A stretch of DNA of 52,476 nucleotides from an uncultured Flavobacteriaceae bacterium (GTDB lineage Bacteria > Bacteroidota > Bacteroidia > Flavobacteriales > Flavobacteriaceae). Position numbers and translations under genes: made by a program. The DNA is taken from NCBI GenBank assembly GCA_905380995.1, contig CAJPUS010000066.1:1-52476 (forward strand), in the 5' to 3' direction. Positions 44,355-45,170 of this stretch are shown piece by piece. Numbering within the stretch: the first letter of the stretch is position 1; each line of letters starts with the position of its first letter. A model generated the notes under the pieces. The model was not told the DNA's origin, did not search any database, and saw only the letters and a list, made by a program, of their open reading frames with translations.

Positions 44355-44600
44355 TTTTTTATGTAAATGTTATTAATAAAGTTAAAAATTTATAATAAAA
44401 AAGCTGTTTTAAAAAATGAAATCGATAAAATCGCTCTACTAACGTAGTAATTTACATTTTAAGTTTATTATAATTAGTTAAATAATATTTTACATATTAT
44501 TCAAAAATTTTAATTTATAGATATATTAAATTACTATATTATTAAATATTATACCTTTTTTTTATCAAATTAGCAAAATTTTTATTAAATTTAAACAATT

Positions 44601-44655
44601 TCCCGTGTGGACTGGGATTAAAAATATAGTCGCGGGTGGAGAGAACGCATCCGGA
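44601..44655 (+). ncRNA. candidate structured 5' leader / RNA switch upstream of the YRGV mini-ORF
   Basis: This is the only non-tRNA G+C-rich island in any intergenic spacer of the window. It can form two mutually exclusive hairpins that share CGGG 44633-36 (details in the findings). The strand assignment is assumed from the downstream ORF. Confidence 0.35.
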
Positions 44656-44669
44656 AAAATCGTTACAAT

Positions 44670-44879
44670 ATGTTTAATATAAATCTGAAATTTATGAAAT
44701 CTAATAAATCAAATTTTACTTACAGAGGTGTTAAATATAATCAAAATGATATTTCATCTTCTGATTCAAAACTTTCTAATGGAATTTATAGGGGAGTTAA
44801 GTTTAATGAAAGTTTAACTAAGAAAAATAATTCTGTTAAAAAGAAAGGTTCATATAGGGGTGTAGAAGTTTCTCTCTAA
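44670..44879 (+). CDS. YRGV-repeat mini-protein (DUF4278-like?)
   Basis: 69-aa ORF with an alternative in-frame ATG at 44694. YRGV occurs at residues 18, 40 and 62, encoded with different synonymous codons. A strong terminator follows 16 nt after the stop. Confidence 0.55.
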   Translation: MFNINLKFMKSNKSNFTYRGVKYNQNDISSSDSKLSNGIYRGVKFNESLTKKNNSVKKKGSYRGVEVSL

Positions 44880-44894
44880 TAAAAATATGATACC

Positions 44895-44930
44895 AAAAAA
44901 AAAGGCTTTAATCGAAAGCCTTTTTTTGTT
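44895..44930. terminator. bidirectional rho-independent terminator
   Basis: Stem AAAGGCTTT(44901-09)/AAAGCCTTT(44915-23) with loop AATCG. It is flanked by an A-run upstream and a T-run downstream. It can serve both the mini-ORF (+) and tRNA-Pro(TGG) (-). Confidence 0.75.
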
Positions 44931-45095
44931 TGGGTTGAATGTGTTTTTACTCACATGATCTTTCCTAAAAAACTAAATTACCTAAGTATAAAAAGGATTT
45001 TTATAATATCTAAGTTTTTTCTAGTCTAAATGAGGTACAATGTTAACCAAATTAAAAAATATTAATAGATTTCAATTAATTGTTTTATAATTATG

Positions 45096-45170
45096 TCGGG
45101 GTGGCAGGATTCGAACCTGCGACCTCCGCGTCCCAAACGCGGCGCGATAACCGGGCTACGCTACACCCCG
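45096..45170 (-). tRNA. tRNA-Pro (anticodon TGG), CCA not encoded
   Basis: Hand-folded 75-nt cloverleaf. The acceptor is CGGGGTG/CACCCCG and the anticodon arm is CCGCG-TT TGG GA-CGCGG. The variable loop is AGGTC and the T arm is GCAGG-TTCGAAT-CCTGC. The discriminator is A. Confidence 0.95.

What the first reader, a model, noticed from the sequence alone, without database searches (positions are those of the whole stretch)
44670..44879. Mini-protein made of three YRGV motifs with exact 22-residue periodicity
The ORF reads MFNINLKFMKSNKSNFTYRGVKYNQNDISSSDSKLSNGIYRGVKFNESLTKKNNSVKKKGSYRGVEVSL. Y-R-G-V begins at residues 18, 40 and 62, an exact period of 22.

The three copies use different synonymous codons (Tyr TAC/TAT/TAT, Arg AGA/AGG/AGG, Gly GGT/GGA/GGT, Val GTT/GTT/GTA). 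The peptide motif is conserved rather than the nucleotide sequence, which argues for real translation.

The ORF is bracketed by the structured leader and a strong terminator, so it is a self-contained transcription unit.

The repeated YRG(V/I/L)xY pattern recalls, from memory, the uncharacterised DUF4278 small proteins of cyanobacteria. I could not verify that assignment. No function is known for such peptides, and finding one in a flavobacterial context behind a candidate RNA switch would be new.
Basis: partly seen in the sequence, partly recalled or inferred. Interest (0 to 1): 0.6.

Follow-up and report, generated by a model that had tools for sequence, protein, structure and literature searches.

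The report
Flavobacterial YRG mini-protein behind novel leader
This is a real, expressed gene for a tiny basic protein of the known DUF4278 family, relatives of part of a cyanobacterial glutamine-synthetase regulator; the unusual part is that a different, highly conserved RNA leader replaces the glutamine riboswitch that normally controls such genes.

Summary
Window 44670-44879 scores 36 bits against Pfam DUF4278 (cut-off 25.3).

- **Conservation:** ten distinct orthologues keep 69 codons, no indels, YRG at residues 18/40/62, and dN/dS of about 0.28.
- **Expression:** marine metatranscriptome contigs cover only the leader-to-terminator stretch.
- **Family:** DUF4278 is the N-terminal module of the cyanobacterial glutamine-synthetase inactivating factor IF17. 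Stand-alone "IF17-like" peptides are known to sit behind glutamine riboswitches.
- **Relatives:** two other Flavobacteriales genomes and several metagenome contigs carry 53-57-aa three-YRG homologues behind a canonical glutamine riboswitch (RF01739, 46-48 bits).
- **Leader here:** that riboswitch is absent. In its place is an almost invariant 69-nt leader (44599-44667) with two hairpins, a possible pseudoknot and no Rfam match. It was found in over 60 marine Flavobacteriaceae, as a single copy in every whole genome searched. There it mostly precedes two other, unrelated mini-ORF families.
- **Start codon:** the likely start is the second ATG (44694, 61 aa). The first eight codons derive from a leader uORF.
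- **Fold:** AlphaFold2 gives three beta-hairpins with Arg-Gly at each turn and no fixed tertiary fold.

Function is inferred only: a basic mini-regulator, possibly linked to nitrogen status. The family is known; the host lineage and the leader are new. Earlier scan notes flag this leader here and possibly similar elements in other genomes.

The parts
44586..44593 (+). Promoter-like -7 box TAAATTTA, one base off the Bacteroidota TAnnTTTG consensus, 7 nt upstream of the leader motif
   Evidence: Read from the sequence. The sister loci L047 and L048 have TATATTTG at the same distance. The consensus is from my own knowledge of Bacteroidota promoters. This is an inference; no transcription start site was mapped.
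44599..44667 (+). Conserved leader RNA motif (model R1). H1 pairs 44601-44606 with 44611-44617, with loop GUGG. H2 pairs 44633-44638 with 44648-44653, with the 9-nt loop GAGAGAACG. A possible pseudoknot pairs AACG 44644-44647 with CGUU 44661-44664.
   Evidence: The motif is 96% identical across 9 orthologous loci. Model R1 gives 78 matches, 62 of them distinct. H1's outer pairs covary: UA34/AU23/GC1/GU1 and CG48/UA8/UG2/AU1. H2 shows only GU42/GC19. The pseudoknot is invariant and so untested. There is no Rfam 15 match.
44670..44693 (+). First ATG plus 8 codons (MFNINLKF): a leader-derived segment, here fused in frame to the main ORF
   Evidence: Codons 1-9 show 0 synonymous against 52 nonsynonymous pairwise differences, while pS is 0.29 downstream. 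In L047 and L048 the same ATG opens a 9-codon uORF whose TGA overlaps the main ATG. In leaders of the other ORF classes this position reads AAG or AGG instead of ATG.
44694..44879 (+). Core DUF4278 mini-protein ORF: 61 aa from the second ATG, or 69 aa if started at 44670. pI is about 10.1 and net charge about +8.5.
   Evidence: Pfam PF14105, 36 bits. The homologue P0049 aligns from query residue 10, and metagenome gene callers began P0003, P0004 and P0005 at the equivalent of M9. dN/dS is 0.28. AlphaFold2 gives three beta-hairpins, pLDDT 68.7, pTM 0.23.
44721..44732 (+). YRGV motif 1 (residues 18-21 of the 69-aa reading)
   Evidence: Strand-turn-strand at the first YRG in the AlphaFold2 model.
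44787..44798 (+). YRGV motif 2 (residues 40-43)
44853..44864 (+). YRGV motif 3 (residues 62-65)
44897..44927 (+). Intrinsic terminator-like hairpin with a T-run
   Evidence: Scan hit with 13 pairs, against 0.3 expected in shuffles. It folds at -17 kcal/mol. RNA contigs end at 44885 and 44901.

Best explanation
Shown: 44694-44879 (possibly read from 44670) is a protein-coding gene for a 61-69-aa, strongly basic DUF4278 mini-protein. It is transcribed as its own roughly 300-nt unit that ends at the terminator at 44897-44927.

Predicted: the protein consists of three G-x-Y-R-G-V beta-hairpin modules with Arg-Gly at the turn, joined by flexible Ser/Asn/Lys linkers.

Shown: it is homologous to the N-terminal module of cyanobacterial IF17 and to the stand-alone 'IF17-like' peptides. 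In cyanobacteria (per the literature), and in two other Flavobacteriales genomes and several metagenome contigs tested here, those peptides are expressed from behind a glutamine riboswitch.

Shown: in this lineage (NS5-type marine Flavobacteriaceae; a same-genus genome is titled Candidatus Marisimplicoccus) that riboswitch is absent. The gene sits behind a different, nearly invariant structured leader, together with a short leader uORF that is fused in frame here.

Inferred: synthesis of the protein is controlled after transcription by this leader. The hairpin-2 loop (GAACG) and the CGUU that lies 6-9 nt before the first ATG would form or release a pseudoknot, and so gate initiation.

Inferred: the product acts as a small multivalent binding protein that modulates another macromolecule according to metabolic status, most plausibly nitrogen status. 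It is not a direct IF17-type glutamine-synthetase inhibitor, because the IF7-like inhibitory C-terminus is missing.
For: Family membership: Pfam DUF4278 at 36 bits against a 25.3 cut-off; the six-frame genome search agrees.

Coding:
- Ten distinct orthologues are all 69 codons, with YRG at 18/40/62.
- dN/dS is about 0.28 and variable columns are enriched at third positions.
- Invariant columns across 17 homologues are M1, the three YRG triplets and the two preceding Gly.

Expression: a 279-nt contig at 100% identity (44623-44901, depth 466) and a 273-nt contig laid at 44614-44885 come from two metatranscriptome studies. No contig bridges into either flank; the only other piece laid is a separate one at 44955-45000.

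Link to glutamine control:
- DUF4278 is the N-terminal part of IF17, and IF17-like genes sit behind glutamine riboswitches (PMC6212724; PMC6316151).
- Homologues in Flavobacteriales genomes G043 and G229 and in the metagenome contigs L014 and L018 sit behind RF01739 at 46-48 bits.

Leader:
- It has no Rfam hit.
- It is conserved in 62 distinct sequences, with covariation in H1.
- The CGUU segment stays conserved in leaders where the start codon lies 25-165 nt further downstream, so it belongs to the RNA element.

Start codon and uORF.

Fold: three hairpins. Basic charge.
Against: - No experiment or proteomic evidence shows the peptide itself.
- The regulatory role of the leader is inferred from conservation only. 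H2 and the pseudoknot are invariant, so they have no covariation support.
- The leader does not fold better than shuffles (z = 0.35).
- Nothing ties this locus directly to nitrogen. Neighbouring genes are unrelated. The same leader mostly precedes two other peptide families with no known nitrogen link.
- In IF17 the DUF4278 part is reported as dispensable for inhibition and as mainly stabilising, so even the family gives no mechanism.
- The AlphaFold2 model is of modest confidence (pLDDT 68.7, pTM 0.23).
- RNA contigs from two studies start at 44612, inside H1, which the model does not explain.
Confidence: 0.6

Rival explanations
1. The protein is a true glutamine-synthetase inactivating factor. 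Like IF7/IF17, it binds and inhibits the cell's glutamine synthetase when nitrogen is plentiful.
For: DUF4278 is shared with IF17. The peptide is Arg/Lys-rich with pI 10, like the electrostatic IF proteins described in PMC6316151. That review leaves open that short IF17-like peptides co-evolved with their own GS.
Against: The Pfam match ends 3 residues before the C-terminus, so the IF7-like region that carries the GS-binding residues is absent. The DUF4278 part of IF17 is reported as dispensable for inactivation. The only GS detected in this 77%-complete genome is a 332-aa GlnII-type enzyme. No type III N-domain was found. The cyanobacterial IFs are described for the cyanobacterial glnA-encoded GS, which is a type I enzyme by my own knowledge, not from the papers read.
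Confidence: 0.1
2. The transcript acts mainly as a regulatory RNA. The conserved 5' domain is the functional part, for example as a protein sponge or a base-pairing sRNA. The ORF would be secondary (a dual-function RNA) or untranslated.
For: The 5' 69 nt are far more conserved than any downstream ORF. The same domain heads transcripts with three unrelated ORF families, and every whole genome searched had one copy. The transcript is short and abundant in metatranscriptomes.
Against: All three downstream peptide families are conserved at the protein level across genera. The YRG ORF shows purifying selection and belongs to a protein family found across phyla. An sRNA role for the 5' domain would not exclude the coding role.
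Confidence: 0.15
3. The repeats are nucleic-acid- or ribosome-binding hairpins. The mini-protein would be a basic RNA or ribosome-associated factor rather than an enzyme regulator.
For: Net charge is about +8.5 to +9.5. There are three independent Arg-Gly-tipped hairpins on flexible linkers.
Against: There is no similarity to any solved structure and no RNA-binding Pfam family. This is purely physicochemical reasoning.
Confidence: 0.1

Closest known systems
Pfam DUF4278 (PF14105), the N-terminal module of Synechocystis IF17 (GifB)
   Same: The HMM match is above the curated cut-off. Both share the repeated Y-R-G motif. The gene family is expressed from structured 5' leaders.
   Different: IF17 carries an additional IF7-like C-terminal part that inhibits GS; this protein has only the DUF4278 part. 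The host is a flavobacterium, not a cyanobacterium.
IF17-like peptides of marine picocyanobacteria (for example Prochlorococcus MED4 PMM1846 / Yfr6) behind the glutamine-II (Downstream-peptide, RF01704) riboswitch
   Same: Both are stand-alone, roughly 7-kDa, basic DUF4278 peptides. Both are single small transcription units with a conserved structured leader. Function is unproven in both.
   Different: The leader here gives no RF01704 or RF01739 match. This genome has one copy, whereas picocyanobacteria have multiple copies. Here a uORF is fused to the N-terminus.
Three-YRG DUF4278 peptides behind a canonical glutamine riboswitch (RF01739) in Flavobacteriales genomes G043 and G229 and in the marine metagenome contigs L014 and L018
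   Same: Same three-module architecture, with 27-42% identity to the window protein. Two of them are from the same bacterial order.
   Different: They are 53-57 aa, with YRG starting at residue 4-5 and spacings of 20-23. Their leaders are glutamine riboswitches at 46-48 bits, with a 54-69-nt insertion in P3. G043 and G229 lack the R1 leader.
Glutamine riboswitches type 1 and type 2 (as a comparison for the leader)
   Same: They control the same gene family. The H2 loop and its 3' flank (GAGAGAACGCAUC) match 11 of 13 bases of the conserved 3' strand of RF01739. AUCGUU matches its 5' strand (consensus). As in glutamine-II, GAACG sits in a hairpin loop that can pair with CGUU to form a pseudoknot.
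   Different: The CGUU strand lies 3' of GAACG rather than 5' of it. The ACGGAAGUAGG E-loop strand is absent. A profile of canonical leaders does not find the window leader. Ligand binding is untested.

Membership tests
Pfam DUF4278 (PF14105) | Score at or above the curated gathering cut-off of the family HMM | tested here: met
   36.0 bits against 25.3, E 9.3e-9, HMM positions 3-56 of 57. The six-frame genome search gives 35.1 bits.
Pfam DUF4278 (PF14105) | Short protein built on repeated Y-R-G motifs | tested here: met
   Three YRG motifs are invariant in 17 homologues. Lengths are 53-78 aa.
Pfam DUF4278 (PF14105) | Usual context: immediately downstream of a glutamine riboswitch (typical, not strictly defining) | tested here: not met
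   No RF01739 or RF01704 match in the window leader or anywhere in the genome. The feature is met in relatives L005, L014, L018 and L024.
IF17 / GifB glutamine-synthetase inactivating factor | C-terminal IF7-homologous region needed for GS interaction | tested here: not met
   The protein is 69 aa and the DUF4278 match spans residues 16-66, so nothing follows it. The requirement is taken from PMC6212724 and PMC6316151.
IF17 / GifB glutamine-synthetase inactivating factor | Presence of the cognate target, a GS of the kind the cyanobacterial factors act on (type I by my own knowledge) | tested here: inconclusive
   Only a GlnII-type GS of 332 aa was found. No GSIII N-domain was found. The genome is 76.6% complete, so absence is not shown.
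IF17 / GifB glutamine-synthetase inactivating factor | Inhibits GS activity by direct binding | not testable with these tools
   This needs an enzyme assay with purified peptide.
Glutamine riboswitch type 1 (RF01739), for the leader | Covariance-model score at or above 35 bits; P1 CGUUC/GAACG enclosing P2, the ACGGAAGUAGG strand and P3 | tested here: not met
   No hit even at E up to 10 on a 131-nt query or genome-wide. Only the 3' strand is matched (11/13) and AUCGUU lies downstream of it. An nhmmer profile of canonical leaders finds nothing at 44600.
Glutamine-II riboswitch (RF01704), for the leader | Covariance-model score at or above 33 bits; a 5' CGUUC strand pairing with GAACG in the P2 loop | tested here: not met
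   No hit. GAACG does lie in a hairpin loop, but its only perfect partner, CGUU, is on the 3' side.
Glutamine riboswitch (any class), for the leader | Selective binding of L-glutamine | not testable with these tools
   This needs in-line probing or ITC.

The most novel reading that the evidence does not exclude
The 69-nt leader (44599-44667) is a third, topologically rearranged class of glutamine-sensing (or other nitrogen-metabolite-sensing) riboswitch. It keeps the GAACG:CGUU ligand-pocket helix of the two known classes but closes it from the 3' side as an H-type pseudoknot. In NS5-type marine Flavobacteriaceae it controls a small regulon of mini-proteins. The DUF4278 YRG peptide is the member that betrays the ancestral link to glutamine control. 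The other two families, with the motifs ALEPNQGHA and KTRTIEQK, would then be new nitrogen-status mini-regulators.
Probability: 0.25. Interest if true: 0.85.

Novelty: new variant of a known kind. Interest (0 to 1): 0.55.

Why it matters
DUF4278 peptides are among the most common products of glutamine-riboswitch-controlled genes, yet nobody knows what the stand-alone versions do.

This locus shows that the family also lives in abundant, genome-streamlined marine Flavobacteriaceae of the NS5 group. In the same bacterial order it is driven either by a canonical glutamine riboswitch or by a completely different, ultra-conserved leader.

Finding the same gene behind a different leader is the classic route to new riboswitch classes. 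It gives a direct, cheap experiment: does this 69-nt RNA bind glutamine?

It also points to a set of three mini-protein families that share one control element in heterotrophs important for ocean carbon turnover. Nitrogen-status signalling in these organisms is, to my knowledge, poorly understood.

If the leader turns out not to sense nitrogen, the locus is still a clean, expressed example of a conserved bacterial mini-protein with a repeat architecture.

Tried and rejected
- **Rfam at permissive thresholds** on 1 kb and on 131 nt gave only sub-threshold, unrelated hits: GadY at 26 bits against a cut-off of 45, and GP20-a. I treat these as chance.
- **A profile of canonical flavobacterial and metagenomic glutamine-riboswitch leaders** (nhmmer) did not find the window leader. 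Sequence homology of the two leaders is therefore not shown. The MAFFT alignment is only suggestive.
- **A leader peptide in the GTG frame** starting at 44605 is rejected. L003 has TAG as its second codon.
- **NCBIfam** gave no family for the ORF. **PDB sequence search** gave none. **Pfam** gave none for the two other peptide classes.
- **Complex prediction** of the peptide alignment with the genome's GlnII-type GS returned no verdict, score 0.00. This is neither support nor evidence against binding.
- **The AlphaFold2 model** has pTM 0.23, so I ran no fold search, since matches would be meaningless.
- **Two frame-disrupted gene calls** (P0004, P0005) looked like pseudogenes. They come from contigs with stated coverage of 0.6x and 0.39x and carry several scattered 1-2-nt deletions. 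I treat them as assembly errors.
- **A megablast of L018 against phage genomes** found nothing. The organisms behind L014-L023 were not identified.
- **Complementary distribution of the two leaders.** Six R1-bearing genomes lack RF01739 and two RF01739-bearing genomes lack R1. This is uninformative because both elements are rare in the order: RF01739 in 1 of 151 genomes, R1 in 3 of 151 genera.
- **No RNA contig covers 44400-44611 or 44904-44945**.

Full report
**1. The observation**

YRGV starts at residues 18, 40 and 62, and the synonymous codons are as listed. A terminator-like hairpin follows at 44897-44927 (-17 kcal/mol). A 46% G+C island (44599-44667) interrupts a 12% G+C spacer just upstream.

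**2. Identity of the protein**

- hmmscan places the ORF in Pfam DUF4278 (PF14105): E 9.3e-9, 36 bits against a 25.3 cut-off, residues 16-66. A six-frame search of the genome finds this single copy.
- NCBIfam and the PDB give nothing.
- In most cyanobacteria the glnA-type (RF01739) or Downstream-peptide-type (RF01704) glutamine riboswitch lies directly upstream of DUF4278 genes.
- Marine picocyanobacteria carry short stand-alone 'IF17-like' versions whose function is unproven.
- The N-terminal part of IF17 is dispensable for GS inactivation but promotes stability (PMC6212724; PMC6316151; PMC2864571).

**3. Is it a real gene?**

*Orthologues.* Same-genus genomes and marine metagenomes give ten distinct orthologues. 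All have 69 codons, no indels, and YRG at 18/40/62.

*Selection.* Over codons 10-69, pS is 0.29, pN is 0.096 and dN/dS is about 0.28. Variable nucleotide columns fall 17/16/32 on codon positions 1/2/3. The other two frames hold 3-16 stops.

*Invariant residues.* Across 17 homologues, down to 27% identity, the invariant columns are M1, the three Y-R-G triplets, and a Gly two residues before the second and third Tyr.

*Apparent pseudogenes.* Two frame-disrupted gene calls come from contigs of below 1x stated coverage. They carry scattered 1-2-nt deletions and are best read as assembly errors.

*Transcription.* Marine metatranscriptome assemblies from two studies contain short contigs that match 44623-44901 (100% identity, depth 466) and 44614-44885. 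No contig bridges into either flank; the only other piece laid is a separate one at 44955-45000. That fits a monocistronic RNA of about 300 nt and argues against DNA carry-over. It does not prove translation.

**4. The start codon**

- Codons 1-9 show no synonymous differences at all, but several nonsynonymous ones.
- The exhaustive HMMER search aligns the diverged homologue P0049 from query residue 10. Metagenome gene callers began P0003, P0004 and P0005 at the equivalent of M9.
- In a sister lineage (L047, L048; also L080 and L105) the equivalent first ATG opens a 9-codon uORF. Its TGA overlaps the main ATG, and the main ORF of 64 aa starts 26 nt later.
- In leaders that precede other ORF families, this position reads AAG or AGG instead of ATG.

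I therefore take 44694 as the ancestral start (61 aa). I regard 44670-44693 as leader or uORF sequence that is fused in frame in this lineage. Both ATGs are conserved in all orthologues, so use of the first ATG is not excluded.

**5. Architecture**

AlphaFold2 on the 17-row alignment gives pLDDT 68.7 and pTM 0.23. It predicts three strand-turn-strand hairpins at residues 8-15, 30-37 and 51-60 of the 61-aa form, each with R-G at the turn. The linkers are of low confidence. The peptide has pI about 10.1 and net charge +8.5. The exact 22-residue period is lineage-specific: relatives have 20-23.

**6. Distribution**

- DUF4278 was found in 4 of 34 genomes of the genus, all of them incomplete MAGs or SAGs. 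It was found in only 2 other genomes among about 400 Flavobacteriales searched, G043 and G229.
- One same-genus genome (G016, contig 42 = L074) is titled Candidatus Marisimplicoccus sp.. By my own knowledge this is an NS5 marine group genus.
- The G043 and G229 homologues and the metagenome homologues L014 and L018 each sit behind a canonical glutamine riboswitch. It scores 46-48 bits against a gathering score of 35 and carries a 54-69-nt insertion in P3.

**7. The leader here is something else**

*No known family.* No RF01739 or RF01704 match appears in the leader or anywhere in the genome, even at E up to 10. A sequence profile of the canonical leaders does not find it either.

*Conservation.* The 69 nt at 44599-44667 are nevertheless 96% identical among orthologous loci.

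*Spread.*
- A pattern search in the genus found the element in 11 of 34 genomes. In 7 of these it precedes a different 40-aa ORF with the motif ALEPNQGHA.
- A covariance model (R1) found it in two further genera of the family.
- A degenerate pattern scan of GTDB species genomes returned 100 stretches, of which 80 were fetched. Of those, 72 match R1 and nearly all are marine Flavobacteriaceae or Bacteroidota MAGs and SAGs. Seven of the eight loci without an R1 match are from unrelated phyla and one is an unclassified bacterium; I read them as chance matches.

*Structure support,* from 62 distinct sequences:
- H1 (44601-06 with 44611-17) has pair types UA34/AU23/GC1/GU1 and CG48/UA8/UG2/AU1. All 500 column shuffles scored lower on the covariation measure.
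- H2 (44633-38 with 44648-53) shows only a GU/GC alternation.
- The proposed pseudoknot (AACG 44644-47 with CGUU 44661-64) is invariant and therefore untested.
- The G-U pairs in H1 argue for RNA-level rather than DNA-level pairing.

*Downstream ORFs.*
- About 36-39 loci carry the ALEPNQGHA peptide (25-47 aa).
- About 26 loci carry a 40-45-aa peptide beginning MKY(Y/F)NKTRTIEQK.
- Only 6 loci, plus the four carriers in the window's genus (two of which are probably the same records as two of these six), carry the YRG peptide.
- Every whole genome searched had a single copy.

**8. How it may work**

*Parallel with known riboswitches.* In both solved glutamine riboswitches the ligand pocket is a CGUUC:GAACG helix, capped by a long-range G-C pair, with a G inserted in the major groove. 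In type II the GAACG strand sits in the loop of hairpin P2 (PMC6698751).

*The leader here.*
- H2 has the loop GAGAGAACG, and its closing G-C pair immediately follows GAACG.
- The sequence AAUCGUU lies 7 nt downstream of H2.
- GAGAGAACGCAUC matches 11 of 13 bases of the RF01739 3' consensus strand, and AUCGUU matches its 5' strand. In shuffles of the leader, both features occur together in 46 of 200,000. This is a post hoc statistic.
- The element could therefore form an H-type pseudoknot that rebuilds the same helix with the opposite connectivity.

*Expression platform.*
- In this window the CGUU lies 6-9 nt before the first ATG, so forming or melting the pseudoknot could gate initiation.
- In the other ORF classes a second copy of UAACGC follows, and a GCG segment lies next to the start codon. 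That would allow a relay of alternative pairings. I did not test this relay.

*Status of the inference.* All of this is inference. The leader's minimum free energy is no better than that of shuffles. Ligand binding cannot be tested here.

**9. What the protein does**

- A direct IF17-like role is unlikely. The IF7-like C-terminus is missing.
- The only GS found in the 77%-complete genome is GlnII-type.
- My best reading is a small, multivalent, basic binding protein. Its synthesis would be set by the leader, plausibly in response to nitrogen status. That rests only on analogy with its riboswitch-controlled homologues.
- Rivals are a dual-function or purely regulatory RNA, a true GS inhibitor, and an RNA- or ribosome-binding peptide.

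**10. Novelty and verdict**

The protein family and its link to RNA switches are known. New here:
- its presence in NS5-type Flavobacteriaceae;
- the replacement of the glutamine riboswitch by a distinct, widespread leader that is not in Rfam;
- the in-frame capture of a leader uORF.

The leader itself is the subject of another note of this scan (e1-4327184), whose follow-up report I have not seen. Notes on other genomes (e1-3879211, e1-3959867) describe G+C-rich patches next to ORFs of about 40 codons and may be the same element. I did not check them. Interest for this finding is 0.55. The protein is an ordinary family member. The value lies in the gene-leader pairing, which makes a glutamine-binding test on a new RNA worth doing.

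Noticed in passing
window 44612 (inside hairpin H1 of the leader): In metatranscriptome runs from two different studies (X4, X5), contigs begin exactly at 44612 and are preceded directly by Illumina adapter sequence. No RNA contig in any of the four runs covers 44599-44611. This points to a discrete RNA 5' end between A44611 and C44612, although covariation shows that 44601-44606 pair with 44611-44617. Processing, self-cleavage, a fragmentation hot spot or a reverse-transcription stop are all possible.
   Followed up: no
L025, L028-L032, L035, L037, L040-L046 and about 30 loci among L049-L128: A conserved 25-47-aa peptide family with the motif (I/M)(V/L)ALE(P/Q/H)NQGHA sits behind the same leader. 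It has 41 relatives in the protein collection and no Pfam family. It is the commonest ORF behind this leader.
   Followed up: partly
L038, L049, L054, L057, L060, L064, L065, L069, L071, L078 and others: A third mini-ORF family of 40-45 aa, starting MKY(Y/F)NKTRTIEQK and then a leucine-rich helix-like stretch, lies 95-165 nt downstream of the same leader. It has no Pfam family.
   Followed up: partly
Downstream of the leader in the loci of the two other ORF classes (listing): After AAUCGUUACA most leaders continue UAAGUUUAACGC, a second copy of the AACGC of the H2 loop. A GCG segment follows next to the start codon. This would allow a relay of mutually exclusive pairings, like a riboswitch expression platform. 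The window's YRG-class leader lacks the second AACGC.
   Followed up: no
L003 (genome G005, contig 5): The leader-ORF cassette matches the window only over 44446-44915 and its flanks are unrelated. In four other orthologous loci the lipoprotein gene and/or the tRNA-Pro and LysR neighbours are syntenic. The cassette may have moved.
   Followed up: no
L005 (G043), L024 (G229), L014, L018: Canonical glutamine riboswitches (RF01739) occur in Flavobacteriales genomes and unidentified marine contigs with a long, partly conserved insertion of 54-69 nt in P3. The order is not a lineage the papers read here associate with this riboswitch. Only 1 of 151 sampled genomes of the order has it.
   Followed up: partly
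L025-L035, upstream of the leader: In the genus's ALEPNQGHA-class loci an extra hairpin (UCGAU..AUCGA, with a variable loop) lies between the promoter-like box and the leader motif. It is absent from the window's locus.
   Followed up: no
window 45096-45170 (-): A tRNA (Rfam 67.8 bits) lies 170 nt downstream of the terminator on the opposite strand. It is conserved next to the cassette in L002, L004, L008 and L012.
   Followed up: no
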